This document shows, piece by piece, positions 18,499 through 64,000 of a stretch of 64,000 nucleotides of DNA (positions within the stretch are counted from its first letter, which is position 1; the number at the start of each line of letters is the position of its first letter). The stretch lies in the UHGV virus genome UHGV-0222911; one strand, written 5' to 3'. The notes beneath the pieces were generated by a model, which was not told where the DNA came from, did no database searches, and saw nothing but the letters and a program-made list of their open reading frames with translations. The DNA comes from a virus. The position numbers were made by a program, and so were the translations under genes.

Positions 18499-18519
18499 AT
18501 TAAAAGACCCTCTTAAAGA

Positions 18520-19792: not shown

Positions 19793-19864
19793 ATTAAAAG
19801 ACCCTCTTAAAGACCTTTTAAAAAGGTAAGTCTCATTTTAATGTAGCTGAGACTAACTACCCGC

Positions 19865-19954: not shown

Positions 19955-20019
19955 ACTTAAAAAACCTCTTAGAAGACTCTTAAGTGATGCTGGTGAGTAC
20001 CCGTTGGTTTATGCTGCTC

Positions 20020-50225: not shown

Positions 50226-50230
50226 AGTGT

Positions 50231-50260
50231 TTGACAAGGGGCTTCAAAGCCCCTTAGAAT
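50231..50260 (+). promoter_or_regulatory. sigma70-like promoter with hairpin in the spacer
   Basis: TTGACA - 18 nt (contains GGGGCTT caa AGCCCC) - TAGAAT. Confidence 0.45.
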
Positions 50261-50304
50261 AGCCTTACAAAATGATTTATTAACTAACAAGAGAGAGTAA
50301 TAAG

Positions 50305-51413: not shown

Positions 51414-51429
51414 TAAGTAATTTCTTAAA

Positions 51430-51456
51430 AGGCTGCTTCGGCGGCCTTTTTTATTT
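51430..51456 (+). terminator. UUCG-tetraloop terminator
   Basis: GGCTGC TTCG GCGGCC followed by TTTTTTATTT. Confidence 0.55.
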
Positions 51457-51513
51457 GTATTTTGTGCAGAGTGCTGTATAATTGTTGTCACGATAAACTA
51501 AACAGGAGAACCA

Positions 51514-52062: not shown

Positions 52063-52735
52063 TGAAGTCCTGTGCCATGCTTATGACTTGCATCCTCATG
52101 AGTTAGGTCTTGATTCCTGTGTATGGACTCCAGAACAGTGCAGGGATTTTGAAGACACTGCAAGAGAAGTTGTATGTTCACTTGAAGAGTTCCACACATC
52201 AGAACCAATTGTGAACGTTGTGGACAAAGAGACTGGACAAACTATAGGTGTAAGGCGCGATAGTTTAGTCATAGTCAATAAAGACCTTGTAGAAAAAGGT
52301 AACCTCATCTTAGCAGATATTGATGGTGTTCTTACAAATTTTAATCACGAAGATTGCTCAACGGAATTGACTGATGGGTCATTCTCACAGTACACTAATC
52401 TTCTTGATTCTGTAAGAGCAAAGCCAACATATGTTTTCAACATTATTGATGCAATTGCAAATCATGCAGCAGTTGGACTCTTGACAGCAAGAGGTGAATC
52501 TCAGAGAATACCTACTGAGATGTTTTTAAGGCACAATATAGAGCATGATTACTTGCTTTTTATGCGTGGTTTTGGAACTAACTCTATAAGTGCAGAAAGT
52601 TTAAAAGTGAGGATGATTCAGTCTTGCATTCTTCCTTATTTTAATATAGTATGCTTTATAGAAGATACAGAGAATAATGTTCAGAAGGTAAACAGAATCC
52701 TTCCACACATTAAAACTATGTTAGTTAAACATTGA
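52040..52735 (+). CDS. HAD-superfamily phosphatase-like protein
   Basis: 231 aa; HAD motif I LILADIDGVLT. Confidence 0.4.
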   Translation: MKKLRKSDEVLCHAYDLHPHELGLDSCVWTPEQCRDFEDTAREVVCSLEEFHTSEPIVNVVDKETGQTIGVRRDSLVIVNKDLVEKGNLILADIDGVLTNFNHEDCSTELTDGSFSQYTNLLDSVRAKPTYVFNIIDAIANHAAVGLLTARGESQRIPTEMFLRHNIEHDYLLFMRGFGTNSISAESLKVRMIQSCILPYFNIVCFIEDTENNVQKVNRILPHIKTMLVKH

Positions 52736-53211
52736 GAGAAGAACTTATGAACAATATCATTACGGTAGCACTGGACGATACGGCAAACAAATCTGAAGTA
52801 GTTCGTAAAATGATTCAAGGTAACTTTGAAGGTAAAATTTTCCGTGCTGTTAATGTAAAAGCTGATGGCAGTATTCGTGAATATCGTGCATTGTTGAATG
52901 TTAAGAAGCACGTAAAAGGTGCTGGTTCAACGACTGCACACAAAGAAAACCTGATGACTATCTATGATATGGGTAAGGCTTCAGAGTTAGGTGCTGAAGG
53001 TATCGTTAAAGAAGGTGCTCCATATCGCTCTTTCAATCTGGAAACTACCCTTATGCTTTCCTTTACGAGTGGTTCTAAAACAATCACTTATCTCTTTACT
53101 GATGCTGCAACGGTATCTGCTATTAAGGATAGCACTGTCAAAGCTGGCGTAGTTGCTGCTGCAAAAGCTTCTTCGATGGCTGCAAATATCCTTGCTAAAG
53201 TCCTCGGTTAA
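52732..53211 (+). CDS. hypothetical protein
   Basis: 159 aa ORF followed by terminator. Confidence 0.4.
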   Translation: MREELMNNIITVALDDTANKSEVVRKMIQGNFEGKIFRAVNVKADGSIREYRALLNVKKHVKGAGSTTAHKENLMTIYDMGKASELGAEGIVKEGAPYRSFNLETTLMLSFTSGSKTITYLFTDAATVSAIKDSTVKAGVVAAAKASSMAANILAKVLG

Positions 53212-53224
53212 GGTTAAGATACAG

Positions 53225-53246
53225 GCTCCTTCGGGAGCCTTTTTCA
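53225..53246 (+). terminator. UUCG-tetraloop terminator
   Basis: GGCTCC TTCG GGAGCC followed by TTTTTCATTT. Confidence 0.55.
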
Positions 53247-53263
53247 TTTCAGGAGATTGTTAA

Positions 53264-53611
53264 ATGACATTTAAAGAGTTCTGTCAAGCTACTTTCATAA
53301 TTGTTTTCTTAGTTGGGGCAGGTGTCTGGGGAGGATACTCTTACAGAGACTACCAAGTTGCTGAAGCTGAGTTAAGCAATGAGAAACTAATAAGTATTGC
53401 TAAAGACGCTTATCAGGAAGGTTTAGCCACACTGAGCACCAATTACAAAAATGATTTGAAAGATGTGCTTGCTAAGAATAAGCATACAAAAGAGGTACTA
53501 ACATATGAAAAAACTAAGCCAGAGTTTTATAATGTTTGTGTTACTGATAATTATGTCAGGGTGTTCAACGAACAAAGTGAACAGTACATTCAAAAACTCC
53601 CAAGTAAGTGA
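53264..53611 (+). CDS. i-spanin-like protein (Rz-like)
   Basis: 115 aa; N-terminal TM (FIIVFLVGAGVWGGY) then coiled-coil-like region; overlapped by lipoprotein ORF in another frame. Confidence 0.45.
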   Translation: MTFKEFCQATFIIVFLVGAGVWGGYSYRDYQVAEAELSNEKLISIAKDAYQEGLATLSTNYKNDLKDVLAKNKHTKEVLTYEKTKPEFYNVCVTDNYVRVFNEQSEQYIQKLPSK

Positions 53612-53774
53612 GAGTGATAAGTACACTCAAGAAGATTCAAGATTCACTATCAAAGGTAATACTGGTAGTGATGTGGCAGCAGCCCTTGAGTTCTATCGTG
53701 ATGGATTTTACCAGTGCACAATCAAAGCTAATAGCCTTATTGATATGATTTTATTAGGAAATAAACAGCAATGA
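53505..53774 (+). CDS. o-spanin-like lipoprotein (Rz1-like)
   Basis: 89 aa; lipobox LLIIMSGC; starts inside the 3' part of the preceding gene in a different frame. Confidence 0.45.
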   Translation: MKKLSQSFIMFVLLIIMSGCSTNKVNSTFKNSQVSESDKYTQEDSRFTIKGNTGSDVAAALEFYRDGFYQCTIKANSLIDMILLGNKQQ

Positions 53775-54040
53775 CAGAGAATGAAGATACTTTTTACGTA
53801 GAAGGGTACTTACTGTTACCGCGACCAAAAGAAACTTATATGAGAATTGACTTCATACCAACCATTATGGATAATGTGATGTGTCATATCTTTATGCAGG
53901 GTGTCACAGCACAGCTTAAGCATGTTGGTAAAGAGTGCAGAATAAAGGTTGACACTCATCCAGAAATCAAAGAGAATCACTACACATGGTTCTTACCAGA
54001 CTCTAAAGAAATCTTAGCAGTTCTTAAAACGAGGAAGTAA
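53771..54040 (+). CDS. hypothetical protein
   Basis: 89 aa ORF. Confidence 0.4.
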   Translation: MTENEDTFYVEGYLLLPRPKETYMRIDFIPTIMDNVMCHIFMQGVTAQLKHVGKECRIKVDTHPEIKENHYTWFLPDSKEILAVLKTRK

Positions 54041-54042
54041 CT

Positions 54043-54366
54043 ATGCAGATTAATGGAAGAGACTTTGTAGCCGTTTACTACGAGAAAGGTAAAGAAGTTG
54101 GCGTAGCGCAAGTATCTTATGGCAATGGTGGGTGGCTATATGGAACAATCGCAGTAGTTGGAACGAGAAGTGATACAAAAACTTTTAAAGATTGTGTTGA
54201 CCTTCTTGAAGAATCCATTCAGAATCATTGGTGTCTGATATGGATGACTGACAACGAAGTGATAGAACGCTTCAAAAAGATTGATATCAACATTGATAGT
54301 ATTGAGCATGTTGATTTATATGAGCTAACTGAGAAGGTAAATTATGAAAGCTCTAGAAATAGTTGA
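54043..54366 (+). CDS. hypothetical protein
   Basis: 107 aa ORF. Confidence 0.4.
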   Translation: MQINGRDFVAVYYEKGKEVGVAQVSYGNGGWLYGTIAVVGTRSDTKTFKDCVDLLEESIQNHWCLIWMTDNEVIERFKKIDINIDSIEHVDLYELTEKVNYESSRNS

Positions 54367-54571
54367 CAAAGATACTGGAGAAGTCATCTCTGCATGTGTT
54401 TTCGTGAGCGATGATACAGTGATACCATTTTACAATCTTGATGGTTTTAGTTTTACAGGGATAACTCCAGAAGAATACTTTGAAGACCTCACCTTTGCCA
54501 GAGTATCTATAGATACATTCTATAAATGTTTCTATGATGAAGGTAAAGAATTACGAGAAACTGAACTATAA
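54344..54571 (+). CDS. hypothetical protein
   Basis: 75 aa ORF. Confidence 0.35.
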   Translation: MKALEIVDKDTGEVISACVFVSDDTVIPFYNLDGFSFTGITPEEYFEDLTFARVSIDTFYKCFYDEGKELRETEL

Positions 54572-54582
54572 GGTGTATATTC

Positions 54583-54783
54583 ATGGCTGACTTCTGCAAA
54601 GACTGTTCTATAGAAATGTTTGGACGTGATACAGGTGACTTAAAAGGTCTTATCACTGAAGATGACTTTAAAGCTGGCTATGCAATGCCAGTAATCTGTG
54701 AAGGTTGTGGATGTATCTGGGTAGACCACGAAGGACAACGTGTAAAACCTTCAGAAGATAAAGAATCTTGGGAGAGATGTTAA
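54583..54783 (+). CDS. small Cys-containing protein
   Basis: 66 aa; CKDC...CEGCGC. Confidence 0.35.
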   Translation: MADFCKDCSIEMFGRDTGDLKGLITEDDFKAGYAMPVICEGCGCIWVDHEGQRVKPSEDKESWERC

Positions 54784-55569
54784 ATGGGTATTGTAAAAAT
54801 CATCAATGGCGATATCTTTGCCGCATTTGATAAAGGTAAGTTTGACATCATTGGTCACGGTTGCAACTGTATGAATTTAATGGGCGCAGGTATCGCTGAC
54901 AAGATTTCTAAACTTTACCCAAAAGCATATGAGACCGATACAGAGGTTTATCTATATGCAGGTGGCATAGGTCACAAACCTTGTGAAAATTTACTGGGTA
55001 ATTTCTCTGTAGCACGTTTAAAACAAGGTCGTATAGCTAACCTTTACACTCAGCTTAAGACTGGTAAAGATGCCCGATACAGTGCTTTAGAATCATCTTT
55101 GAAACAGCTTAACAGATACTGTGAAGTTAATCAGTTGAGGAAAGTTGGTTTACCTATGATTGGTGCAGGTATCGGTGGGTTGGACCCTCAAGCCGTCACA
55201 GTTATCATCAATCAGGTGATGAAGAGTGTAGATGTTTATCTATATGTCTATGAAGGAGAGATGTACCACAAGTTACGCTCAGGTTGGAAGAACTACTGTG
55301 AACCAGAATACTTTGCAGGTGTAGTTGTGTTCACGGATAATGCAGTTACCCTCTTCAGACGAAGAAAAGGTAAGATACATCAAAGTAACCCTCCGGTTGA
55401 GAAGATGTCTCTAAGTAACGCTCTAGTTACCCACCTGTCGAAGAGCAATCACAGGATAGCCGTAACATTTGGCAGTGATGCAGATACATATATTTATGCA
55501 AGAACTGATGAGGATATCGAGACGGTCTTCTCTTCACCGGAAGTTACCTTCTTAGACGCAAAGAACTAA
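54784..55569 (+). CDS. macro-domain (ADP-ribose binding/processing) protein candidate
   Basis: 261 aa; N-terminal IINGDIFAAF...DIIGHGCNCMNLMGAGIADKI resembles macro-domain core. Confidence 0.5.
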   Translation: MGIVKIINGDIFAAFDKGKFDIIGHGCNCMNLMGAGIADKISKLYPKAYETDTEVYLYAGGIGHKPCENLLGNFSVARLKQGRIANLYTQLKTGKDARYSALESSLKQLNRYCEVNQLRKVGLPMIGAGIGGLDPQAVTVIINQVMKSVDVYLYVYEGEMYHKLRSGWKNYCEPEYFAGVVVFTDNAVTLFRRRKGKIHQSNPPVEKMSLSNALVTHLSKSNHRIAVTFGSDADTYIYARTDEDIETVFSSPEVTFLDAKN

Positions 55570-55639
55570 GAAACTCTGTATAATATTCACAATAGACTAA
55601 GCCTTTCTTATCTGGTAAATTTTTCAGGTAAGGAGGGCT

Positions 55640-55823
55640 TTTTCATTTCAAGATTGTGCAGGTAGAGTTCTGTAGAGAAATCTGTAGAGAGAATTTTGAA
55701 CTCCAAAGAGAAAATTCATTTTCAAACTGTGCAGGTAATCTCCAAAGAGTTTTTTCATTTTCAAAACGTGCAGACCCCGCTCAGGTCGGGCAAGAAAAAT
55801 CATTTTAGAATTGTGCAGGTAGG
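55640..55823. repeat. four direct repeats of ~CATTTTCAAAnTGTGCAGGTA in ORF-free region
   Basis: Copies near 55640, 55714, 55752, 55798; followed by C-rich tract CCCCTCTCCCCCTCTTACTCCCCCTCTCCCC at ~55826-55876. Confidence 0.6.
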
Positions 55824-55997
55824 TTTTTATAGACAGCCAGCCCAGCCCCTCTCCCCCTCTTACTCCCCCTCTCCCCAAAAGTCAAGAGAAAAATTTGTAG
55901 CGGATTGAAAAATAATTCTTGATTGTAGTTCTGTTTTGTGGTAGTCGCGTGCGCCCGTTTCATTACAGTTTTTTCAAAAATATTTTTAAAATTTTTC

Positions 55998-56026
55998 TTG
56001 ACTCTTTGGATATGGTTATCTAATAT
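55998..56026 (+). promoter_or_regulatory. sigma70-like early promoter (module A1)
   Basis: TTGACT - 17 nt - TAATAT, then hairpin GGGGAGGGAATGACCTTCCCC at 56037-56057 and conserved leader to ATG 56093. Confidence 0.6.
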
Positions 56027-56092
56027 TTGCATCAACGGGGAGGGAATGACCTTCCCCACTAAACAACTAACCTTAAACTAGGAGATTCAAAA

Positions 56093-56473
56093 ATGGCTTA
56101 TCGTGCACCGAAATTCATCAACAAAGACAACTTTCGCAACGTACTGGAGAAGGCACTTGATGAAAAATTTAACGGTAAAATGATTGTTGTTCACGCATTC
56201 AATTTTAAGTATGATATCAACGGGAATAAAATCAACCATTACACGGCTACAATGCTAGATGGTACTCTTTCAAGTGAAAAATCCATTCTCCATGCACTGG
56301 CAGGACGTGGAAAGGTTTTAGTAAGATGTGATAAGCGACGTTATCAAGGTGGCGCATATGGTTATGATGATGCTGTTTACCATCTTGAAAATATGGGCTA
56401 TTCAGTGGAGAAAGCTGGAGCGCCTCAAATAATCGGTAGTGATGGTTATGTGACAATCTTCAAAATTAAATAA
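56093..56473 (+). CDS. early-region small protein (unknown)
   Basis: 126 aa; ATG 8 nt after GGAGA SD in conserved leader. Confidence 0.5.
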   Translation: MAYRAPKFINKDNFRNVLEKALDEKFNGKMIVVHAFNFKYDINGNKINHYTATMLDGTLSSEKSILHALAGRGKVLVRCDKRRYQGGAYGYDDAVYHLENMGYSVEKAGAPQIIGSDGYVTIFKIK

Positions 56474-56559
56474 AGTACTTTACAGGGGGCTTATAGTTCG
56501 ATAAAGTAAGCCCCAGATAAAGAGCTTTACCACTAAATCCTAAATTGGAGAACTTAAAA
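56471..56559 (+). promoter_or_regulatory. conserved intergenic module B1 (hairpin + shared leader)
   Basis: TAAAGTACTTTACA + hairpin GGGGCTTA/TAAGCCCC (56486-56514) + AGATAAAGAGCTTTACCACTAAATCCTAAATTGGAGA..ATG. Confidence 0.55.
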
Positions 56560-56850
56560 ATGGCTATTATCAAAAACGTTGTAATTCCTGCAAAAACTCG
56601 TGACGACGCTCGTATCATGGCGAAAAAGTTAGGCGGAAAAGTGGTTGACAACGGAAAACAATCCACTGTAAGATGGGGCGTGAAGACTGATAAGCAGTTG
56701 AAGTTAAAAAATTCACCAATAAACCTTTTTACATGTGTAAACACTATCGGGAAGGCAAATGTATACACGAAAAAGGCATATATTAGACGCGTAGCCTTAA
56801 CATCCCCCATTCGTACAATGAGAGGCCATGCAAAGCTGAAAATTAACTGA
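56560..56850 (+). CDS. early-region small protein (unknown)
   Basis: 96 aa from ATG placed by conserved leader (longest ORF starts 56545). Confidence 0.5.
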   Translation: MAIIKNVVIPAKTRDDARIMAKKLGGKVVDNGKQSTVRWGVKTDKQLKLKNSPINLFTCVNTIGKANVYTKKAYIRRVALTSPIRTMRGHAKLKIN

Positions 56851-56938
56851 TAAAGTACTTTACAGGGGGCTTAAAAGTTGGTATCTTAAGCCCCAGATAA
56901 AGAGCTTTACCACTAAATCCTAAACTGGAGATTCAAGA
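56851..56938 (+). promoter_or_regulatory. conserved intergenic module B2
   Basis: Same module; hairpin GGGGCTTAA/TTAAGCCCC at 56866-56894 with compensatory changes relative to B1. Confidence 0.55.
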
Positions 56939-57151
56939 ATGAACATTAATCAAAAACTGAAAACCGCCTCACAAGTCCTATTCACAGATGATGACTATTT
57001 CAATAAAGACCTTACAGGTTTGAAATCTCTCAAAGAGATTAAAGAGCGCATGAAAATTTATGGAAAACCTCGGTTAGTTGGTGTATTCTCTAACTGTTAT
57101 GTTTATCAGCTTAATGGTCATTACAATTTTACGATTACTATTTTATCCTAA
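56939..57151 (+). CDS. early-region small protein (unknown)
   Basis: 70 aa. Confidence 0.45.
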   Translation: MNINQKLKTASQVLFTDDDYFNKDLTGLKSLKEIKERMKIYGKPRLVGVFSNCYVYQLNGHYNFTITILS

Positions 57152-57166
57152 ACTGGAGATTCAAAA

Positions 57167-57463
57167 ATGAAATTATCAAATAAAGTCCGTGAAAACCTTA
57201 GCAAGTTACTCAACAAAATTGATTTCATTGAAACATCAAGAAATAGCCATGATGTTATGGAATGGTTACACGGCAAAATAAAAGGCCGTCGTGTAGTGAT
57301 TTGTCTATGGAATAGTTGCAGGGAGTATAAAAAACCTGTATTGCAAATTAATGTTTATGATGATACTTATAAAAGCCCTGTTAAGTCTGAAAGTGATTTA
57401 CTAGATTCTTATGAGATAACTGTAAATGGCAAAGTATCACGTAAAGAGGAAGCACTATGTTAA
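57167..57463 (+). CDS. early-region small protein (unknown)
   Basis: 98 aa; preceded by short form of conserved leader CCTAAACTGGAGATTCAAAAATG. Confidence 0.45.
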   Translation: MKLSNKVRENLSKLLNKIDFIETSRNSHDVMEWLHGKIKGRRVVICLWNSCREYKKPVLQINVYDDTYKSPVKSESDLLDSYEITVNGKVSRKEEALC

Positions 57464-57789
57464 TGATGGGTATCACTGCAATCATAGCCATTATGGCACT
57501 TTACAAGGCTTACAGCGCCTATAATCTGGCAAGTAAGGCAATCACGCAACAGGTTAATAATAACCTTGTAATGAGCTTTCTGGAGCGTTTAAGTGATGAA
57601 CAATTGAAACGGTTAGAAATGAGCTTCAGATTTCAATCGAGAACTTATCAAATCAGCGACATTTTCAAAGATGATTTTCAGCTAGTCGATGATTATAATT
57701 CTCTGATAAATGCTTTAAATATCAGTGACTTAAAAGACTATTACTCTGTAATTGTTCAAGAATTGAGCAAACGAAAACAAAACTGTTGA
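57457..57789 (+). CDS. early-region small membrane protein
   Basis: 110 aa; N-terminal TM (MGITAIIAIMALY); ATG overlaps previous stop. Confidence 0.4.
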   Translation: MLMMGITAIIAIMALYKAYSAYNLASKAITQQVNNNLVMSFLERLSDEQLKRLEMSFRFQSRTYQISDIFKDDFQLVDDYNSLINALNISDLKDYYSVIVQELSKRKQNC

Positions 57790-57814
57790 CACTGATTTTT
57801 AGATAGATTAAATT
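57786..57814 (+). promoter_or_regulatory. sigma70-like early promoter (module A2)
   Basis: TTGACA - 17 nt - TAAATT; hairpin 57825-57845; leader to ATG 57880. Confidence 0.6.
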
Positions 57815-57879
57815 ACACATCAACGGGGAGGGAATGAACTTCCCCACTAAATAAAGTCCTTAAACTAGGAGATTCGAAA

Positions 57880-58152
57880 ATGTATACTACTAACAACGGT
57901 CGTACTCTAAATGTAACTTTGCGCCACTATGTTGACGGTGTAATGCACTTTGAGGATTTACAGGCTGAACAACACATCTTAGATTGGCAAGTAGCAGGAC
58001 TCCAAAAAACTGCTACAGGATACGGGAAAAAGATTCCAACTAGCTGGAAAGTATACTACGAAGGACGTTTGCGCAGAATTTATCAGGATGTATGTAGCAA
58101 TAGCGCAACAAGTTACATCATGGTAAAAGGTAAAAAATTGCACTTAGTATAA
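57880..58152 (+). CDS. early-region small protein (unknown)
   Basis: 90 aa. Confidence 0.5.
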   Translation: MYTTNNGRTLNVTLRHYVDGVMHFEDLQAEQHILDWQVAGLQKTATGYGKKIPTSWKVYYEGRLRRIYQDVCSNSATSYIMVKGKKLHLV

Positions 58153-58237
58153 AGTACTTTACAAGGGGCTTATAGTTCGATAAAGTAAGCCCCAGATAAA
58201 GAGCTTTACCACTAAATCCTAAATTGGAGATTCAAAA
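58150..58237 (+). promoter_or_regulatory. conserved intergenic module B3
   Basis: Near-identical to B1; hairpin 58165-58193. Confidence 0.55.
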
Positions 58238-58642
58238 ATGGCTATTAATAATCGTGAGTTGTCAATCTTAAAAGCACGTTTGACCGTTAACCGGATTAAT
58301 GTTATCACGTCATCAGCACCAGATGAAACACTGCAAAACATTATTGGGAAGATTCAAAGTGTTATCTTAGATGTTGAAAGCGTAAAAAACTCATTGGCTG
58401 ACGTTGCAGCAGGTATCACGCTAGACGGTGCACAATATGAAATGGCTGACATGTTAGGCAAATCAAAGGTAATGAATAAAGAGCTTGATTTAAAAATGTT
58501 TCGTTTTGCCGTGAAAGTGTGGCTATCTGTCGAGTATGACGCAAATTTTGCAATTGCTGACTTTTTTGCAACATGGTTGCAACGTAATTTAACAAATCAT
58601 GATTTTCGTGATATCTGTGACGCAATTTACGCAGAACTCTAA
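58238..58642 (+). CDS. early-region small protein (unknown)
   Basis: 134 aa. Confidence 0.5.
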   Translation: MAINNRELSILKARLTVNRINVITSSAPDETLQNIIGKIQSVILDVESVKNSLADVAAGITLDGAQYEMADMLGKSKVMNKELDLKMFRFAVKVWLSVEYDANFAIADFFATWLQRNLTNHDFRDICDAIYAEL

Positions 58643-58649
58643 AAAACTG

Positions 58650-58678
58650 TTGACACTGATTTTTAGATAGATTAAATT
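58650..58678 (+). promoter_or_regulatory. sigma70-like early promoter (module A3)
   Basis: Identical to A2: TTGACA - 17 nt - TAAATT; hairpin 58689-58709. Confidence 0.6.
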
Positions 58679-58740
58679 ACTCATCAACGGGGAGGGAATG
58701 AACTTCCCCACTAAGTAAAATCCTAAACTGGAGATTCAAA

Positions 58741-58941
58741 ATGGCTATTATTAACGGCTTAACCATTGAAACAACACACATCAAAGACATCAAAGTTGGG
58801 GATGTAGTCCTTTCCCACGGCGTAGAAAAAACTGTCACTGCAAAGGATATCAAAGAGGATTCTTTCATGGGTAGAACTCTCTTTGGTGATTCTTATTGCT
58901 TAGGTTATCTTGCAGTTTTAAAAGTTGTCAAAATTAACTGA
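58741..58941 (+). CDS. early-region small protein (unknown)
   Basis: 66 aa. Confidence 0.45.
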   Translation: MAIINGLTIETTHIKDIKVGDVVLSHGVEKTVTAKDIKEDSFMGRTLFGDSYCLGYLAVLKVVKIN

Positions 58942-59029
58942 TAAAGTACTTTACAGGGGGCTTAAAAGTTGGTATCTTAAGCCCCAGATAAAGAACTTTA
59001 CTACTCAATCCTAAACTGGAGATTCAAAA
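58942..59029 (+). promoter_or_regulatory. conserved intergenic module B4
   Basis: Same as B2; hairpin 58957-58985. Confidence 0.55.
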
Positions 59030-59572
59030 ATGAAATGCTTTCACGGTACTACTCAAGAAAACTTTATCAACCTGATTAATAACGGTGATAAGCCATCAGG
59101 TGCATGGAATTGTTCGGATATGGACGGCAATTTTTACGTTTATCCAGAAAATAAAATCTATGGCGACGATGAGGAAGAGATAACATCTGAAGGCATTCAG
59201 CAAGCTTTAGGTAATGCCACTATTACCGCAGCGTTTCAGATGAAAACTCAAAATATTGTTATCTTGGAACTTGATATTCCAGAGGATGAGTTGAATGATG
59301 ATTATTCTTGTGATAATATGTCGAGTGTGGCAAGTTTTACAGAGTATTTTGATATAAGCTGGATTAAAAAGGTTTACATCACTGAATTTAATGCTATGTT
59401 TTCACCTTTTTGTCTTCCTTCACTGGATAACCCAAATTTGAACTATCTTGATGAGTCTCTGGAACTTCTCGCTAAAAGTGTTCAACAATCAGACAGTGTT
59501 CAGGTTTTTTGTGACATCATGGATACACTAACAGGAAACATCATAGAAAGTGATTTGAAGAGCTTTTTATAA
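59030..59572 (+). CDS. strongly acidic early protein (unknown)
   Basis: 180 aa, Asp/Glu-rich with few basic residues. Confidence 0.5.
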   Translation: MKCFHGTTQENFINLINNGDKPSGAWNCSDMDGNFYVYPENKIYGDDEEEITSEGIQQALGNATITAAFQMKTQNIVILELDIPEDELNDDYSCDNMSSVASFTEYFDISWIKKVYITEFNAMFSPFCLPSLDNPNLNYLDESLELLAKSVQQSDSVQVFCDIMDTLTGNIIESDLKSFL

Positions 59573-59604
59573 AAACCTATGCAATCACCTTATAAACACT
59601 GATT

Positions 59605-59625
59605 AGCCCCTCACAGGGGCTTTTA
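59605..59625 (+). terminator. hairpin + T-run
   Basis: AGCCCC tcaca GGGGCT followed by TTT. Confidence 0.45.
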
Positions 59626-59638
59626 GGAGGCTTTAATC

Positions 59639-59872
59639 ATGCTTACAACCGTTTATCTCATCCTTTCTATTTGTAATGGTCATTCATGCGATTTTAAAGG
59701 GCTTGAGGAGTTTACAGGGAGTAAAGAAAATGCCATTCAGGTCTGTCAGATAGCAAGACAAGACTATCCCGCCAGTGATGATATACAATGTTACTTTAAG
59801 ACAGAAGATAAAGACGGCATCTATTTTGACAGCGTAGACGGTCAATATGAAATCATCATTGAAAAAGACTAG
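59639..59872 (+). CDS. early-region small protein (unknown)
   Basis: 77 aa; SD GGAGG before ATG. Confidence 0.45.
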   Translation: MLTTVYLILSICNGHSCDFKGLEEFTGSKENAIQVCQIARQDYPASDDIQCYFKTEDKDGIYFDSVDGQYEIIIEKD

Positions 59873-59898
59873 ACAAGCTTGATAAAAGTCTGTAAATT
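59870..59898 (+). promoter_or_regulatory. sigma70-like early promoter (module A4)
   Basis: TAGACA - 17 nt - TAAATT; hairpin 59909-59929. Confidence 0.5.
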
Positions 59899-59963
59899 AC
59901 TAATCAACGGGGAGGGAATGGCCTTCCCCACTAAATAAAGTCCTTAAACTAGGAGATTCTAAA

Positions 59964-60305
59964 ATGGCTTATGTAACTGTAATTACCGATAAAGAGAATT
60001 CATCTTGGTCAACTCAGGTTAGTGATAAGATGTCACCTATGCAGTGCCTAAAATACTTTGAGCAGTGGAACAAAGGCGAAGATGTAAGCCCCTTTCAGGT
60101 AATGCAAATCATCCATACAGATAACGAAGGGAATAAAACGACACTGAATAGCGAGTACTACGCAAGCCGTTTTGAAACGAGAAGTAAAACAATGAAGATT
60201 TTACGTGAATCCGGCTATTCTCATATTGCCGCGCTAATCTGGGATGACCTGCTAAAAAGTCAGCGTATCAGCTATGTAAAACCTGAAAAAATATTTATCA
60301 GTTAA
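59964..60305 (+). CDS. early-region small protein (unknown)
   Basis: 113 aa. Confidence 0.5.
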   Translation: MAYVTVITDKENSSWSTQVSDKMSPMQCLKYFEQWNKGEDVSPFQVMQIIHTDNEGNKTTLNSEYYASRFETRSKTMKILRESGYSHIAALIWDDLLKSQRISYVKPEKIFIS

Positions 60306-60434
60306 TCAATAACTTACAAAAAACTTTTAAAAAGATGTTGACAATCCCTCTTGACATTGGTAACTTTGTTCGAGGGGGTTTATCTAAAAGGGATTAACTT
60401 AAAAGATTCTTTATAGATAAACTTAAAAAATTGC

Positions 60435-60463
60435 TTGCAATCAGATATCAAAACAAGTAAATT
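60435..60463 (+). promoter_or_regulatory. sigma70-like early promoter (module A5)
   Basis: TTGCAA - 17 nt - TAAATT; variant hairpin GGGAGG caataa CCTCCC at 60475-60492; two extra TTGACA at ~60345-60366. Confidence 0.5.
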
Positions 60464-60527
60464 ACTCATCAACGGGGAGGCAATAACCTCCCTACTAAGT
60501 AAAATCCTTAAACTAGGAGATTCAAAA

Positions 60528-61058
60528 ATGAACAAGTTCAAAGCTATCAACTATATTCGTTCAAATAATGTAATGTCTAAGCCTGTTAAAGATACCTATG
60601 AATTTCGTTGTAATGGGGTACACTTTGCAACCATTACCAAATCAGAAAACGGAGCTTATTACGTTCATCGTCGTAATGTTGCAACCGTTGTAGTCTCTCA
60701 CTTTATGCAAGCTGTTGCGGAACTTCTCCCGCTGTTTTTAGGTCTTTACTTAGATGAGTGTAAAAACGTTCACAGCCACGTTAAAAACCTTTTAAACAGT
60801 TATAAAATGGCTTATGAACGTTCTATTCATAATTTGAACAAGTTCTATAAAGCCCCTGAAAATACTGTGTCAATAGCTTATGACGTAAGCGGTGAAATGG
60901 TCAATCTCTCCAATGTAGAACAAATTAACCTTTATGATTTACGTCCTAACGGTTACGCTAAAACTCTCGGTGAAGGTTTAACGTTTAATATCAAGAACTT
61001 AGAAAAAACTTTAAAAGATATTGAAAAAGATATTGACGAGACAACCAAAAATCTGTAA
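60528..61058 (+). CDS. early-region protein (unknown)
   Basis: 176 aa from ATG placed by conserved leader (longest ORF starts 60435 within promoter). Confidence 0.5.
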   Translation: MNKFKAINYIRSNNVMSKPVKDTYEFRCNGVHFATITKSENGAYYVHRRNVATVVVSHFMQAVAELLPLFLGLYLDECKNVHSHVKNLLNSYKMAYERSIHNLNKFYKAPENTVSIAYDVSGEMVNLSNVEQINLYDLRPNGYAKTLGEGLTFNIKNLEKTLKDIEKDIDETTKNL

Positions 61059-61061
61059 ATT
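61033..61061 (+). promoter_or_regulatory. sigma70-like early promoter (module A6)
   Basis: TTGACG - 17 nt - TAAATT, inside 3' end of preceding CDS; hairpin 61072-61092. Confidence 0.5.
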
Positions 61062-61123
61062 GTCAATCAACGGGGAGGGAATGGCCTTCCCCACTAAGTA
61101 AAGTCCTAAACTGGAGATTCAAA

Positions 61124-61387
61124 ATGGAACACGTCGAACTGACCACACTTTTACAAATTGCAACCGACAAAGAGGATGTAGCACTATTCCACCGTATCGA
61201 AAGTGATTTGTTCAATGGTGAAATCATCAAAGAGTCTTACGAGGTTGTCGGATTCAAAGACGGTAAAGCATTCGGATTCTTTGACCTCGACAAAGGTAAC
61301 GCTATTACAAAGTACGATGTATTATCTTGTGAGATTCTGGCAAAATACAACGAAAAAAGACTTGCAACATACGCCAACATGCAGTAA
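61124..61387 (+). CDS. early-region small protein (unknown)
   Basis: 87 aa. Confidence 0.5.
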   Translation: MEHVELTTLLQIATDKEDVALFHRIESDLFNGEIIKESYEVVGFKDGKAFGFFDLDKGNAITKYDVLSCEILAKYNEKRLATYANMQ

Positions 61388-61391
61388 ATTA
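61362..61391 (+). promoter_or_regulatory. sigma70-like early promoter (module A7)
   Basis: TTGCAA - 18 nt - TAAATT; variant hairpin GGGAGG taatga CCTCCC at 61401-61418. Confidence 0.5.
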
Positions 61392-61452
61392 CTAATCAAC
61401 GGGAGGTAATGACCTCCCACTAAATAAAAACCTTAAACTAGGAGACTCTAAA

Positions 61453-61701
61453 ATGGCTACTATCCGCGCAACTGTTAATGCTTATGGCTGCTACACTCTG
61501 GATGTTAAATTTGATATTGGTGGAACTGATGAATGCTTTTCATTAGTGAAGACAGTTATCAAGCAAGTTATCCCAGATTATAACCCTACTGATGACTTCT
61601 GGAAAGACGCTGTAAAAGAGGCATTAAACGACGAGCATCACTATCATTACTGGGGTGATTTGATTGTCTCCCTGTACTACAGCAAACAAGGGTACAACTA
61701 A
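61453..61701 (+). CDS. early-region small protein (unknown)
   Basis: 82 aa; followed by two hairpins and a long T-run. Confidence 0.5.
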   Translation: MATIRATVNAYGCYTLDVKFDIGGTDECFSLVKTVIKQVIPDYNPTDDFWKDAVKEALNDEHHYHYWGDLIVSLYYSKQGYN

Positions 61702-61735
61702 TCGACGCAACGGGGCTAAATAGCCCCAGATACCT

Positions 61736-61769
61736 GAAAAGCTCCTTCTCATAGGGGCTTTTTTTTTTA
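61736..61769 (+). terminator. rho-independent terminator closing the early cluster
   Basis: AAAAGCTCC ttctcata GGGGCTTTT with 10-nt T-run. Confidence 0.6.
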
Positions 61770-61779
61770 CGTCTATGCA

Positions 61780-63420
61780 ATAGCCCCTATACAAGCCTTT
61801 CCCTTTCCTTTCCAGAATCTATCCCGTACCTTAAAAGCAATAACTCTATAGCTTACTCTATAGCCCCTTATCAAATCAACTTAAATAAAAGCCAATAACC
61901 CCAGAAAGGGGATGGCCTACTAATTGGTATTGTTACCAATCCCCTAAACGCTCTATAAAGCTCTATAACAGCCTTATCAACCTAACTTAAGGGATTGCAT
62001 TAACCCACTCTAAAAAGCCCTTTATAAAGCTTCCTATAGCCTTAAAAGAATCTTATAAGGGTGTAAGCTTTATCATCTCGTTAGTTATCTTGTGAATAAC
62101 TCAATAGCCCTTGATAGTCTCTAAAAAGTATGTTATAGGGGCTGTTAAGTTACTTTGAAGTTACGTAAAAGAGGCTATAAAGTTACGTAAACGCTAGCCC
62201 CCTTAACATTTTCTTAACAATTTCTTAACAATCCCTACATAGTTATGCTTTTAAGGCACTTGTTAGAGACTTGTTAGCCCCTTGTTAAATCTCTGTTAAG
62301 ACCACGTAAAAGCCTTGTAAGAGTCTTTGGCATAGCCTTTAAAGCTCCTATAAAGCCCTATAAAGAGGTGTCTGTATAGTTGGGGTGTAGTTACTAGGAA
62401 GAGACTTAAAAGAGCTTATAAGGGGCTATAGAGAGCTTTTAAGAGGTATGTTTAGAGAGTCACTAAAAGGGAAGGGAACAATAAGAAAAGAGTAGTGACC
62501 ATGTTAATAGCTTGTTAAAAAGATTAAACACTTGTTAGGAACTTGTTAATTATCTAATTGGTATTGTTACCAATCCCTAACAAAATAACTCTTTAAAATT
62601 AACTTGTTAGCTCTTGTTAGTCATCTGTTAAGATTCTGTAAAGTCTATGTATCAACTGTTAAGAAACTGTTACATCCTTGTTAGTTCTGTTAAGAATCTG
62701 TTAAGACCTTTGAAGAGTTGTTAAGAGGATGTAGTAGCTGTTAAGAGATTGTTAAGGATATTTTAAAATTTTGCAAAGTACTTGTAAGGGAGCTGTTAAG
62801 GGCTACCAAGCAGATATACATCTTCTACAGATATTTTTCAGTTCCTTCAAAGACCCTAAAAAATGACTTGACAGTCCTATTTTATAAAAATTTTAAAATT
62901 CTGAATAATTACCTAGACAGTCTTTTAAAAATACAGGCATAAACAGGCTTATAAGATACCTTGTTAGTACCGTGTTAGACCTTGTGAGATAAGGTCTGTA
63001 AAGATATTCCTGTTAAGTTTGTTAAAACAGTCTATATAGAGGCTTAGTATTTCCTAGTGAACACCTATAGAGAGTAACATAGCTAACCTAATGGGTTACT
63101 GTTAAGTAACACAGGTAACCTAGAGATTAAGAGGTGTATAGGAGCTTCTAAGAGGGTGTAGAGAGATGGTTAAGGTGATTGTATAGGTTGTTAAGAAGGC
63201 TTGTTAGAAGAGTGTTTAGAAGGGCTATACAGAGGGGCTATTAAGACCACTAGATAGATACTAAGATACTATATAGTACTATATAACTATATAGAGAGTA
63301 AGATTAAGAAGGTTGTTAAGAAGGATAGATATTTTATTCACATATGATGGTGACCCAGAGGTTGGGACAACCGATAAAATTTTATAAAAATTAAAAAGCC
63401 CCCAATTAAGGAGGCTCTTA
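61780..63420. repeat. ORF-free repeat-dense region (YTGTTAR and CTATAAAG short-repeat families, palindromes)
   Basis: No ORF of 60 aa or more on either strand; about 30 copies of CTGTTAAG/TTGTTAG-like words; CTATAAAG/CTATAG words at 61.84-62.45 kb; palindrome TTGGTATTGTTACCAA at ~61924 and ~62557. Confidence 0.7.
63393..63416 (-). terminator. terminator for minus-strand gene 63428..63985
   Basis: Minus strand AGCCTCC ttaatt GGGGGCT followed by TTTTT. Confidence 0.45.
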
Positions 63421-63427
63421 AGATATT

Positions 63428-63985: not shown

Positions 63986-64000
63986 ACCATTATCGTAAAA

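What the first reader, a model, noticed from the sequence alone, without database searches (positions are those of the whole stretch)
56471..59029. Four copies of a second ~90-bp intergenic module whose hairpin shows covariation
Modules at 56471-56559, 56851-56938, 58150-58237 and 58942-59029 begin at the stop codon of the upstream gene (TAAAGTACTTTACA), contain a hairpin, and end with the shared leader. Copies 1 and 3 have stem GGGGCTTA/TAAGCCCC with loop TAGTTCGATAAAG; copies 2 and 4 have GGGGCTTAA/TTAAGCCCC with loop AAGTTGGTATC, so the stem is maintained while the loop is replaced. The hairpin has no strong T-run after it, so it is probably not a simple terminator; it may be an RNase III-type processing site within a polycistronic early transcript, or it lies in the spacer of a TTTACA-17-TAAAGT-like promoter. 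The same hairpin-in-spacer arrangement appears at 50231-50260.
Basis: seen in the sequence. Interest (0 to 1): 0.6.

Follow-up and report, generated by a model that had tools for sequence, protein, structure and literature searches.

The report
Promoter-hairpin gene cassettes, Felix-O1-like phage
The four ~90-bp repeats are real intergenic cassettes of a Felix-O1-like phage: each puts a host-type early promoter, an RNA hairpin built into that promoter, and a shared ribosome-binding leader in front of a small gene of unknown function. They also mark the points where related phages have swapped genes, and cassettes of this kind are already described in T4-like phages.

Summary
The window is a Felixounavirus, and the four modules sit in its early, orphan-gene region downstream of rIIA/rIIB.

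Across ~150 copies from related phages, three features are conserved:
- **-35:** an invariant TTTACA.
- **Spacer:** 17 bp, rarely 18.
- **-10:** always TAnnnT, with TGn upstream in 61% of variants. Its TA lies in the hairpin loop and its last bases in the 3' arm.

The stem is kept by compensatory changes: GGGG/CCCC becomes GGTG/CACC in Erwinia phages, and one variant has lost a base pair from both arms. Non-Watson-Crick pairs are almost all G·U (40) rather than A·C (2), so the hairpin is selected in plus-strand RNA. It lies upstream of its own predicted start site and has no U-tract, so it can only act on read-through transcripts.

Homology breakpoints between phages pile up on these cassettes, and upstream genes, hairpin types and downstream genes are reassorted.

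This anatomy matches the PeSL (promoter-early stem-loop) cassettes of T4-like phages. The Felix O1 genome paper listed the same sequence only as a "57-bp direct repeat". RNase III processing is neither shown nor excluded.

Verdict: real, a new member of a known kind, of modest interest.

The parts
56471..56559 (+). Module copy 1. The stop codon TAA (56471-56473) of gene 56093-56473 lies inside L1 TAAAGT. The module ends just before the ATG at 56560.
   Evidence: (nhmmer E 1e-25)
56851..56938 (+). Module copy 2. It starts right after the TGA stop (56848-56850) of gene 56560-56850 and ends before the ATG at 56939.
58150..58237 (+). Module copy 3. The stop TAA (58150-58152) of gene 57880-58152 lies inside L1. 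The module ends before the ATG at 58238.
58942..59029 (+). Module copy 4. It starts right after the TGA stop (58939-58941) of gene 58741-58941 and ends before the ATG at 59030.
56479..56507 (+). Copy 1 predicted sigma-70 promoter: -35 TTTACA (56479-56484), 17-bp spacer, -10 TAAAGT (56502-56507). The start site is predicted near A56515.
   Evidence: for the site. Family-wide conservation of TTTACA-17/18-TAnnnT. The start-site position is inferred.
56859..56887 (+). Copy 2 predicted promoter: TTTACA, 17 bp, TG-n-TATCTT (extended -10). The start site is predicted near A56895.
58158..58186 (+). Copy 3 predicted promoter: TTTACA, 17 bp, TAAAGT. The start site is predicted near A58194.
58950..58978 (+). 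Copy 4 predicted promoter: TTTACA, 17 bp, TG-n-TATCTT. The start site is predicted near A58986.
56486..56514 (+). Copy 1 core hairpin GGGGCTTA(U)...(G)UAAGCCCC. It occupies the spacer, the -10 and the stretch between the -10 and the start site.
56866..56894 (+). Copy 2 core hairpin GGGGCTTAA...TTAAGCCCC.
58165..58193 (+). Copy 3 core hairpin.
58957..58985 (+). Copy 4 core hairpin.
56471..56529 (+). Copy 1 extended three-helix hairpin: L1 TAAAGT pairs with R2 GCTTTA, L2 CTTTA (inside the -35) pairs with R1 TAAAG, plus the core stem. The same arrangement is at 56851-56909, 58150-58208 and 58942-59000.
   Evidence: Minimum-free-energy fold -22 to -24 kcal/mol, z -3.3 to -5.7. RNAalifold gives the same structure. 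Pair counts. The palindromes TAAAGnnCTTTA occur exactly only at these sites.
56532..56559 (+). Shared leader with the Shine-Dalgarno GGAG (CCACTAAATCCTAAAyTGGAGAttCAAAAATG). The same leader ends every module here (56912-56938, 58211-58237, 59003-59029) and stands alone at 57135-57166.
   Evidence: (family D6)
50231..50260 (+). Divergent relative between rIIA and rIIB: TTGACA, an 18-bp spacer that is itself the hairpin AGGGGCTTCAAAGCCCCT, then TAGAAT.
   Evidence: 11 of 12 consensus matches; nhmmer E 0.009

Best explanation
Each module is a self-contained expression-and-recombination cassette of the PeSL type. It has four parts in order:
1. The stop codon of the upstream gene, set in an AT-rich stretch.
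2. A host sigma-70 early promoter, TTTACA-17 bp-TAnnnT, often with TGn upstream.
3. A GC-rich hairpin written into the spacer, the -10 and the stretch up to the start site.
4. A conserved ~45-nt unstructured leader with a GGAG Shine-Dalgarno sequence and the ATG.

**How it works.** E. coli or Salmonella RNA polymerase with sigma-70 starts at the A about 7-8 nt after the -10 (inferred). It transcribes the next one to three small genes early in infection.

**Role of the hairpin.** The hairpin lies upstream of that start site, so it exists as RNA only in transcripts reading through from upstream promoters. There it marks the 3' boundary of the upstream message. It most likely acts as a barrier or attenuator, or as a processing site, rather than as a classical terminator (inferred).

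**Role in recombination.** The same ~90 bp recurs at many gene junctions, so homologous recombination between copies inserts, deletes and swaps the flanked genes. This is shown by comparison between phages; the mechanism is inferred.
For: **Identity.** The window is a Felixounavirus: 93% identity to phage HY02 and 252 related records.

**Promoter.**
- In 74 distinct module sequences, CTTTACA is invariant. The only invariant loop positions are the T and A of the -10, and the sixth position is T in at least 90%.
- In 60 unique cores the spacer is 17 in 53 and 18 in 6. There are 13 different TAnnnT hexamers. TG sits at -15/-14 in 36 of 59.
- The upstream 29 nt are 75.6% AT, against 62.2% overall.
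- The upstream stop codon always lies 7-14 nt before CTTTACA, and the ATG lies 79-85 nt after it.
- Variants that have lost a stem base pair keep the 17-bp spacer, and only the distance from the -10 to AGATAAAG drops from 7 to 6.
- In Felix O1, genes 16 and 20, just downstream of the two copies, peak at 5 min, while genes 14, 17 and 19 peak at 25 min (PMC3185647 Table 3).

**Hairpin.**
- 95.3% of cells are paired, against at most 56% when partners are slid. The covariation score is 0.120 against 0.068 in shuffles (0 of 500 shuffles reach it).
- Compensatory changes include GGGG/CCCC to GGTG/CACC in Erwinia phage phiEa21-4, a C-G to U.G to U-A series, and a base pair deleted from both arms.
- Non-Watson-Crick pairs are 40 G.U against 2 A.C, which points to the + strand RNA.

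**Shuffling.**
- 114 of 138 homology breakpoints fall in the intergenic cassettes, against 27% expected (p = 2e-42). Counted as distinct 10-nt bins it is 32 of 50 (p = 4e-8).
- Concrete indels end in the repeats.
- 34 upstream and 32 downstream gene classes are joined in 59 combinations.
- Four-gamete incompatibilities appear on both sides of the hairpin.
- Copy number per genome ranges from 1 to 10.

**Context.** The flanked genes all belong to PHROG families of unknown function with no Pfam domain.

**Match to PeSLs.**
- PeSLs run from the upstream stop codon through an AT-rich region and a sigma-70 promoter to the Shine-Dalgarno sequence and ATG.
- They have a GGGG...CCCC stem-loop with G-T pairs, most often between the -35 and -10 or overlapping the -10.
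- Promoter activity and reduction of read-through were shown with lacZ fusions (PMC2839356).
- The T4/PST consensus is TTTACW-N17-TAYWAT (PMC4122927).
Against: - No transcript 5' or 3' ends, reporter data or in-vitro transcription exist for these phages; none was found.
- The -10 hexamers match the consensus at only 4 of 6 positions.
- The copies are paralogues and orthologues linked by descent and gene conversion, so counts of sequences overstate the number of independent events. The G.U excess rests on about 5-6 events.
- The breakpoint enrichment would be expected for any intergenic linker in a mosaic phage. It does not prove that the module is the recombination substrate.
- The hairpin's role in read-through RNA is inferred. 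There is no U-tract, so real termination is doubtful.
- L1 TAAAGT aligns with the -10 of the sister module (TAAATT/TAAAGT-ACT...-GGGG). In some copies it is preceded by TG, so a second start site upstream of the hairpin cannot be excluded in those copies.
Confidence: 0.7

Rival explanations
1. The whole ~58-nt region folds in read-through RNA into a three-helix, roughly 20-bp irregular hairpin. Host RNase III cuts it, separating the upstream and downstream messages as at the intergenic sites of T7 early RNA. The embedded promoter would be secondary or additional. This reading can coexist with the main explanation.
For: - The extended hairpin is the minimum-free-energy fold of all four copies (-22 to -24 kcal/mol, z -3.3 to -5.7).
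- RNAalifold gives the same consensus structure.
- In the outer helix, pair 7-60 switches from G-C (55 sequences) to U-A (11 sequences), and pair 5-62 tolerates G.U in 10 (L1/R2 table).
- Non-canonical pairs are of the G.U type, which points to an RNA-level structure.
- Helices of 6 + 5 + 8-11 bp separated by internal loops fit the general size of RNase III substrates (own knowledge).
Against: - There is no cleavage data.
- L2 and R1 never vary, and L2 is fixed anyway as the -35, so the middle helix is untested.
- The G-C to U-A switch may be only one or two inherited events, with 7 exceptions.
- There is no Rfam match.
- RNase III does not explain the invariant TA at a fixed 17-18 bp from TTTACA, or the TGn.
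- The relative at 50231-50260 and the second promoter-hairpin class of phiEa21-4 (TTTACA or TTGCAA followed by hairpin GGGGTTATGG...ATAACCCC) have the hairpin but no outer helices.
Confidence: 0.2
2. L1 TAAAGT is the real -10, as in the sister module where TAAATT or TAAAGT is followed by ACTCATCAAC and a GGGG hairpin. Transcription would then start just before the hairpin, which would be a 5'-terminal stem-loop that stabilises the module's own mRNA.
For: - Modules 1 and 2 align over TAAAGT/TAAATT-ACT..-GGGG (reading).
- Copies 2 and 4 have TGA-TAAAGT, which is an extended -10.
Against: - No -35 is found at 15-18 bp upstream in any of the four window copies, where the upstream sequence is unrelated coding DNA (reading).
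- L1 is much less conserved as TAnnnT than the loop hexamer: AAAAGT and TAGACC variants are common.
- A TGA stop codon (20 of 150 copies) is needed for the TG upstream of L1, so at most 20 copies can have it.
- This reading does not explain the invariant TTTACA or the TAnnnT at 17-18 bp from it.
Confidence: 0.07
3. The inverted repeats act in DNA. Either the two palindromes TAAAGnnCTTTA bracketing the promoter, or the GGGGCTT/AAGCCCC repeat, bind a dimeric phage or host regulator that shuts the early promoters off. Alternatively, the hairpin extrudes as a cruciform.
For: - Two exact 12-bp palindromes sit 47 bp apart in every copy, one over the -35 and one at about +4 to +15.
- In the window, exact matches occur only in the modules (8 exact; 29 with at most 1 mismatch, against 5.7 expected).
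- The PeSL authors speculated about a protein that binds GGGG...CCCC.
Against: - When L1 or R2 changes, the local palindrome is broken but complementarity between L1 and R2 is kept. That is hairpin logic, not half-site logic.
- The loop between the GGGG and CCCC arms varies from 4 to 13 nt.
- G.U pairs far outnumber A.C pairs, which argues for + strand RNA rather than duplex or cruciform DNA.
- No transcription regulator was recognised among the neighbouring genes.
Confidence: 0.06
4. The hairpin is an ordinary intrinsic terminator for the upstream gene, and the promoter-like hexamers are coincidental.
For: - The hairpin is GC-rich, stable, and placed right after a stop codon.
- A PeSL stem-loop reduced downstream lacZ expression about as strongly as rrnB T1.
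Against: - In all ~150 copies the stem is followed by AGATAAAG (TGATAAAG in phiEa21-4), never by a T-run.
- The terminator scan does not list these hairpins, whereas the true terminators of the region (51427, 53223, 55599, 61736) have T-runs.
- Conservation of TTTACA-17-TAnnnT with TGn is not explained.
Confidence: 0.04

Closest known systems
PeSL (promoter-early stem-loop) cassettes of the T4-like phages RB49 and phi1 (Arbiol et al. 2010, PMC2839356)
   Same: - An intergenic unit running from the upstream stop codon, set in AT-rich sequence, through a sigma-70 -35/-10 promoter to the Shine-Dalgarno sequence and ATG.
- A GGGG...CCCC stem-loop with G-T pairs, most often placed between the -35 and -10 or overlapping the -10.
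- Many copies clustered among small genes of unknown function.
- Indels and replacements between close relatives end in the cassettes.
   Different: - A different phage subfamily (Ounavirinae, not T4-like).
- No sequence similarity detectable by blastn (one search finds essentially only Ounavirinae).
- The -10 is weak (4 of 6) and often of the extended type, rather than a near-perfect TATAAT.
- Two extra outer helices enclose the -35 and the stop codon.
- Promoter activity, attenuator activity and mini-circles are unproven here.
PeSLs of T4/PST and of KVP40/nt-1 (Comeau et al. 2014, PMC4122927)
   Same: - The T4/PST promoter consensus TTTACW-N17-TAYWAT is almost the TTTACA-N17-TAnnnT found here.
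- They play the same role as exchange points for orphan genes.
   Different: In PST the stem-loops lie just upstream of the promoter, not inside it. The stem sequences differ.
The '57-bp direct repeat' of the Felix O1 genome paper (Whichard et al. 2010, PMC3185647)
   Same: It is the same element: CTTTACATGGGGCTTAAAAGTCTGTAAAGTAAGCCCCAGATAAAGAGCTTTACCACT, found between genes 15/16 and 19/20.
   Different: It was reported only as a direct repeat. No promoter, hairpin or recombination role was proposed, and the authors stated that secondary promoters downstream of terminators were unknown.
Sister module in the same window: TTGACA-17-TAAATT-ACnnATCAAC-GGGGAGGGAATGAACTTCCCC-leader, at 55991, 57779, 58643, 59863, 60450, 61026 and 61377
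   Same: - The same leader and the same kind of GC-rich hairpin.
- The same position between small early genes, and the same breakpoints.
- It aligns with module 2 over TAAAGT/TAAATT-ACT..-GGGG.
   Different: Its hairpin lies downstream of the -10, so it would be at the 5' end of its own transcript. It has a near-consensus -35 and no outer helices.
RNase III processing sites between the early genes of phage T7
   Same: Intergenic, irregular hairpins of about 20 bp with internal loops, sitting in a polycistronic early transcript (own knowledge; fold).
   Different: The T7 sites do not contain promoters. No cleavage evidence exists here, and there is no sequence or Rfam similarity.

Membership tests
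PeSL cassette | [quoted passage not shown] | tested here: met
   The stop codon lies 7-14 nt before CTTTACA in all 150 copies with an upstream ORF, and the ATG lies 79-85 nt after it.
PeSL cassette | A sigma-70-like -35 and -10 at about 17-bp spacing, with AT-rich sequence upstream. | tested here: met
   - TTTACA is invariant.
- The spacer is 17 in 53 unique cores and 18 in 6.
- TAnnnT is present in 59 of 60 unique cores.
- TG is at -15/-14 in 36 of 59.
- The upstream sequence is 75.6% AT, against 62.2% overall.
PeSL cassette | A stable GC-rich stem-loop (GGGG...CCCC, with G-T pairs tolerated) inside or next to the promoter. | tested here: met
   - The core stem is 8-11 bp and lies in the spacer and -10.
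- 95.3% of cells are paired and compensatory changes are present.
- There are 40 G.U pairs.
PeSL cassette | Ends with a Shine-Dalgarno sequence and the start codon. | tested here: met
   Every copy has the leader ...CCTAAAyTGGAGATTCAAAAATG.
PeSL cassette | Clustered in a variable region rich in small genes of unknown function. | tested here: met
   All ten flanked ORFs belong to PHROG families of unknown function, with no Pfam hit above threshold. The number of copies per genome varies from 1 to 10.
PeSL cassette | Indel and replacement junctions between related genomes fall in the cassettes. | tested here: met
   - 114 of 138 breakpoints lie in cassettes, against 27% expected.
- There are 59 upstream x downstream combinations.
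- Four-gamete incompatibilities are found.
PeSL cassette | Promoter activity, and reduction of read-through by the stem-loop, demonstrated with reporters. | not testable with these tools
   The only indirect evidence is that Felix O1 genes 16 and 20 peak at 5 min.
PeSL cassette | Formation of mini-circles by recombination between neighbouring cassettes. | not testable with these tools
   This needs inverse PCR on infected cells or virion DNA.
PeSL cassette | Host genome is a T4-like phage, the group in which the family was described. | tested here: not met
   The window and all relatives are Ounavirinae. The element is therefore filed as the same kind, not as a homologue of the T4-like elements.
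Intrinsic (Rho-independent) terminator | A GC-rich hairpin followed directly by a U-rich tract. | tested here: not met
   The stem is always followed by AGATAAAG, and the terminator scan does not list these hairpins.
RNase III processing site | About two turns of mostly double-stranded RNA within the transcript. | tested here: inconclusive
   A three-helix hairpin of 19-22 bp is predicted, with partial covariation in the outer helix. The middle helix never varies.
RNase III processing site | Cleavage by RNase III in vitro, or rnc-dependent RNA ends in vivo. | not testable with these tools
   No data were found.
Rfam RNA families | A match to a curated covariance model. | tested here: not met
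   Nothing in 56400-59100 scores at E up to 1.

The most novel reading that the evidence does not exclude
The module is more than a promoter with a hairpin. Its ~58-nt extended hairpin pairs the -35 element with positions +4 to +8 of its own transcribed region, and pairs the upstream stop-codon region with +10 to +15.

On this reading the hairpin is a conserved RNA 'punctuation mark' across Ounavirinae. In read-through transcripts it would be cut (for example by RNase III) or would block exonucleases. Each orphan gene would then become an independently stabilised message that is also independently re-initiated.

That would make it a single ~90-bp unit in which promoter, RNA-processing site and recombination linker are superimposed and co-evolve.
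Probability: 0.2. Interest if true: 0.55.

Novelty: new member of a known kind. Interest (0 to 1): 0.35.

Why it matters
- **Missing promoters of Felix O1.** It supplies the early promoters that the Felix O1 genome paper could not find, for a phage group widely used for Salmonella and E. coli typing and biocontrol.
- **PeSL-type cassettes outside T4-like phages.** It shows that PeSL-type promoter/stem-loop cassettes are not confined to T4-like phages. An unrelated myovirus subfamily uses the same design, with the same consequence of gene shuffling at the cassettes.
- **Overlapping constraints.** It is a clean natural example of overlapping constraints. The three variable bases of the -10 hexamer co-vary with spacer bases so as to keep an RNA stem, while the bases that sigma-70 reads stay fixed.
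- **Practical use.** The cassettes are natural landing pads and ready-made expression units for engineering these phages.

Tried and rejected
- **Rfam scan of 49000-64000 at E up to 1**: nothing in the modules.
- **Flank-anchored scan of IMG/VR**: it also returned five loci (L006, L012, L022, L025, L048) with a 25-nt insert, AAGGAATGAACCTTGAAGATGGTAA. This reads as an open frame (LYKGMNLEDGKDKELY) and has no stem. I treated these as chance coding matches and dropped them.
- **T4 middle promoter with a MotA box.** I considered this because many copies read GTGCTTTACA. I rejected it because the box would lie 19 bp from the -10, not about 12 bp (own knowledge). No transcription-factor-like protein turned up among the 20 neighbouring ORFs scanned, and the Felix O1 paper reports no polymerase-modifying proteins.
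- **General operator TAAAGnnCTTTA.** Exact copies in the window occur only inside the modules, and the variation follows hairpin logic rather than half-site logic.
- **Conserved -35 upstream of L1.** I looked for one and found none.
- **Transcriptomic or start-site data for Felix-O1-like phages.** Four literature searches and two comparative-genomics papers gave none.
- **GenBank annotations.** Relatives call the flanking genes hypothetical. Phage Mordin marks only a 14-nt 'repeat_region' in the leader, without comment.
- **MAFFT register.** MAFFT puts the variants that lost a base pair out of register. As a result the 'not paired' counts for pairs 27-42 and 28-41 are inflated. The register-free count corrects this.

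Full report
**What the window is.** The region 56000-59600 matches 252 phage records. The best is Escherichia phage HY02 (93% over the full length), and almost all hits are Felix-O1-like myoviruses of Escherichia, Salmonella, Shigella and Citrobacter. The finding lies about 8.6 kb downstream of the start of a 788-codon ORF (47859-50225), in the position of rIIA in Felix O1. It sits in a run of small plus-strand genes. All ten ORFs around the modules fall in PHROG families of unknown function, with no Pfam hit above threshold. Further upstream are a polynucleotide kinase, spanins and a macro-domain phosphatase.

**Checking the observation.**
- The repeat finder reports them as one family of 105 nt, and their alignment has 87% mean column identity.
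- The stems and loops are exactly as described. The pattern GGGGYTT-N3-15-AARCCCC is found 4 times, against 0.00 expected.
- No T-run follows the stems, and the terminator scan does not list them, whereas it does list true terminators at 51427, 53223, 55599 and 61736.
- The promoter scan lists TTTACA-17-TAAAGT for copies 1 and 3, and TTTACA-17-TATCTT with an upstream TG for copies 2 and 4.
- The arrangement at 50231-50260 is also real: TTGACA, an 18-bp spacer that is itself the hairpin AGGGGCTTCAAAGCCCCT, then TAGAAT. nhmmer recognises it as a weak relative of the module.

There are two corrections. Copies 2 and 4 start just after a TGA stop rather than at the stop. Within the window, the 'covariation' is a single position (U.G against A-U).

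**Prior description.** The Felix O1 genome paper lists this very sequence as 'two 57 bp direct repeats' between genes 15/16 and 19/20. It lists the sister module as 39-bp repeats. It gives no interpretation, and it says that secondary promoters downstream of terminators were unknown (PMC3185647).

**Collecting relatives.**
- A flank-anchored scan of IMG/VR gave 50 loci.
- An nhmmer census gave 147 near-full copies, of which 139 are distinct.
- A blastn search shows the module in 289 phage records with 1 to 10 copies each. They span Felixounavirus, Mooglevirus, Suspvirus and, at about 77% identity, the Erwinia Kolesnikvirus group.
- I fetched the early regions of Mordin and phiEa21-4.

**Evidence for a promoter.**
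- In 74 distinct sequences, CTTTACA never varies. Within the otherwise variable loop, the only invariant columns are a T and an A. A T four bases further on is at least 90% conserved.
- Measured on 60 unique cores, TAnnnT lies 17 bp after TTTACA in 53 and 18 bp after it in 6.
- Thirteen different hexamers occur: TATCTT, TAGTAT, TAAGAT, TAAAGT, TACCTT, TATGAT, TACCAT, TACAGT, TAGGAT, TAACTT, TATAGT, TAGAGT and TAATCT.
- TG occupies -15/-14 in 36 of 59.
- Variants that lost one base pair from the stem gained a loop base on the 5' side. The -35 to -10 distance therefore stays at 17, while the distance from the -10 to AGATAAAG falls from 7 to 6. A promoter predicts this; an RNA loop motif does not.
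- The 29 nt upstream are 75.6% AT, against 62.2% overall.
- In Felix O1, RT-PCR put genes 16 and 20, the genes directly downstream of the two copies, in the class that peaks at 5 min. Genes 14, 17 and 19 peak at 25 min (PMC3185647 Table 3).
- The start site (A about 8 nt after the -10: 56515, 56895, 58194, 58986) is my inference.

**Evidence for a hairpin selected as RNA.**
- On the 74-sequence alignment, 95.3% of cells form standard pairs, against at most 56% when partners are slid.
- The covariation score is 0.120 against 0.068 in shuffles (0 of 500 shuffles reach it). Cells changed on both sides number 46, against 16 expected.
- Specific compensations:
  - GGGG/CCCC becomes GGTG/CACC in all four phiEa21-4 copies (pair 21-47).
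  - The ninth pair is A-U, U-A, U.G, C-G or G-C.
  - Position 5 runs C-G, U.G, U-A.
  - One variant class has lost a base pair from both arms.
- In a register-free count over 61 unique cores there are 505 Watson-Crick pairs, 40 G.U, 2 A.C and 3 other pairs. The A.C pairs occur only at the loop-proximal tenth position. A transition in a Watson-Crick pair yields either G.U or A.C on a given strand. This asymmetry therefore says the stem matters in the plus-strand RNA, not in duplex DNA or minus-strand RNA. The caveat is that this rests on perhaps five or six independent events.

**An extended hairpin.**
- All four copies fold into three stacked helices: L1 UAAAGU with R2 GCUUUA, L2 CUUUA (inside the -35) with R1 UAAAG, and the core stem. 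The energies are -22 to -24 kcal/mol, with z-scores of -3.3 to -5.7. RNAalifold predicts the same structure.
- In the outer helix, G-C (55 sequences) switches to U-A (11 sequences), with 7 exceptions. A neighbouring pair tolerates G.U in 10 sequences.
- When L1 or R2 changes, the local 12-bp palindromes (TAAAGTACTTTA and TAAAGAGCTTTA) are broken, but L1-R2 complementarity is kept. This argues against reading the palindromes as protein half-sites.
- Exact palindromes occur only in the modules.
- The middle helix never varies, so it is untested.

**Consequence for mechanism.** The core stem lies between -29 and -1 of the predicted promoter, so it is not in the module's own transcript. It can form only in RNA arriving from upstream promoters. 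With no U-tract in any of ~150 copies, it is not a classical terminator. I infer that it marks the 3' boundary of the upstream message as an exonuclease barrier, attenuator or processing site. Which of these applies cannot be decided here. RNase III remains a live but unproven option.

**Evidence for gene shuffling at the modules.**
- I compared window 55900-61700 with the fetched loci by blastn. Of 138 homology breakpoints, 114 fall in the intergenic cassettes, which cover 27% of the length (p = 2e-42). Collapsed to distinct 10-nt bins it is 32 of 50 (p = 4e-8). The four module-2 copies hold 32 breakpoints, against 7.8% expected.
- Examples:
  - L046 and L047 lack gene 56939-57151, with the junction inside the repeated leader.
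  - L008 lacks 58746-59893, between two copies of the sister module.
  - L028, L040, L008 and L015 carry a different ~580-bp insert from the ATG after copy 2 to the leader at 57149.
- Across all copies, 34 upstream and 32 downstream gene classes are joined in 59 combinations.
- Four-gamete incompatibilities appear between upstream gene and hairpin type (31), and between hairpin type and downstream gene (36). Exchanges therefore occur on both sides of the loop. The alternation of two loop versions in the window is thus allele reassortment, not independent covariation.

**Comparison with known systems.** Arbiol et al. describe PeSLs of the T4-like phages phi1 and RB49.
- PeSLs start at the upstream stop codon in AT-rich sequence. 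They contain sigma-70 -35 and -10 boxes and end with the Shine-Dalgarno sequence and ATG.
- They carry a stem-loop, often GGGG...CCCC with G-T pairs. [quoted passage not shown]
- One PeSL gave about 13,000 Miller units as a promoter. A PeSL stem-loop cut downstream lacZ about as much as rrnB T1.
- Recombination between PeSLs explains indels and yields mini-circles (PMC2839356).
- Comeau et al. give TTTACW-N17-TAYWAT for T4/PST (PMC4122927).

Every sequence-level defining feature is met here (see the membership table). The activities and mini-circles cannot be tested with these tools. The host phage is not T4-like, and there is no blastn similarity to T4-like phages. I therefore file the element as the same kind of system in a new lineage, not as a homologue. 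None of the papers found with the term PeSL concerns Felix-O1-like phages.

**Relationship to the sister module.** The other repeat family of this region is TTGACA-17-TAAATT-ACnnATCAAC-GGGGAGGGAATGAACTTCCCC-leader. It aligns with module 2 over TAAAGT/TAAATT-ACT..-GGGG, most clearly in Mordin. L1 may therefore be a relic of that module's -10. As a working -10, L1 is poorly supported. It has no -35. AAAAGT and TAGACC variants are common. A TGA stop codon (20 of 150 copies) is needed for the TG upstream of L1, so at most 20 copies can have it.

**Verdict.** The best-supported reading is a PeSL-type cassette with three superimposed roles:
- an early sigma-70 promoter;
- a plus-strand RNA hairpin superimposed on it, which acts on read-through transcripts;
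- a shared leader, the whole unit serving as a recombination linker for orphan early genes.

It is a new member of a known kind. The element itself was already listed, uninterpreted, in the Felix O1 paper. Interest is modest (0.35). The most novel reading still open is the three-helix RNA as a processing or punctuation signal that co-evolves with the promoter it encloses (probability about 0.2).

Noticed in passing
window 55570-56092: A 523-nt gene-free spacer.
- A terminator hairpin lies at 55599-55640.
- It is followed by four spaced copies of a ~28-nt motif, TTTTTCATTTyMAAnnTGTGCAGGTAG (repeat families D12/D16).
- Then comes a C/T-rich run, CCCAGCCCCTCTCCCCCTCTTACTCCCCCTCTCCCC.
- The same TCATTT..TGTGCA motif follows the terminators near 51450 and 53241.
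- Erwinia phage phiEa21-4 has four copies in the equivalent spacer (L052 4553-5011).

This may be a phage-specific promoter class or origin iterons.
   Followed up: partly
window 55991-56094, 57779-57882, 58643-58743, 59863-59966, 60450-60530, 61026-61126, 61377-61455: A sister cassette family: TTGACA-17-TAAATT-ACnnATCAAC-GGGGAGGGAATGAACTTCCCC-leader. Here the hairpin is downstream of the -10, so it would sit at the 5' end of its own transcript. Indels between phages also end in these copies.
   Followed up: partly
window 57135-57166, and the 3' end of every cassette from 56070 to 61455: Nearly all early genes here share one leader, CCTWAACTrGGAGATTCnAAAATG, always with GGAG as the Shine-Dalgarno sequence. 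At 57135 it stands alone without a promoter module, and it is itself a deletion junction in L046 and L047. GGAG is the target of the T4 RegB nuclease, but no RegB-like protein was seen among the 20 ORFs scanned.
   Followed up: partly
window 60303-60530; Mordin L051 7974-8171: A long spacer with two TTGACA hexamers in tandem (TTGACAATCCCTCTTGACA) and G-runs, conserved between this phage and Citrobacter phage Mordin. It lies upstream of a sister-module copy.
   Followed up: no
window 59600-59625: The hairpin GCCCCTCACAGGGGC is followed by TTTT directly in front of the Shine-Dalgarno sequence of gene 59639-59872. It is a short terminator-like element, unlike the modules.
   Followed up: no
window 18460-18532, 19754-19826, 19916-19988: Three copies of a 73-nt repeat (family D7). 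It is CA-rich (CCATACCAAACCCGACCTCACC...) and ends in TTAAAAGACCCTCTTAAAGACCTTTTAAAAAGG.
   Followed up: no
L009 near 5405; Mordin L051 5671-5755: Apparent hybrid cassettes. They have the sister-module 5' part (TAAAGTACTyATCAAC) joined to a hairpin whose 3' arm is the module-2 arm (AAGCCCC). This is what recombination between the two cassette families would produce.
   Followed up: no
phiEa21-4 L052 11136-11199 and 11440-11507: In the Erwinia phage, another promoter class has its -10 (TAAAAT) in the loop of the hairpin GAGGGG-TTAAAAT-CCCCTC, 18 bp after TTGACA. Hairpins superimposed on promoters are therefore a general habit of this subfamily.
   Followed up: no
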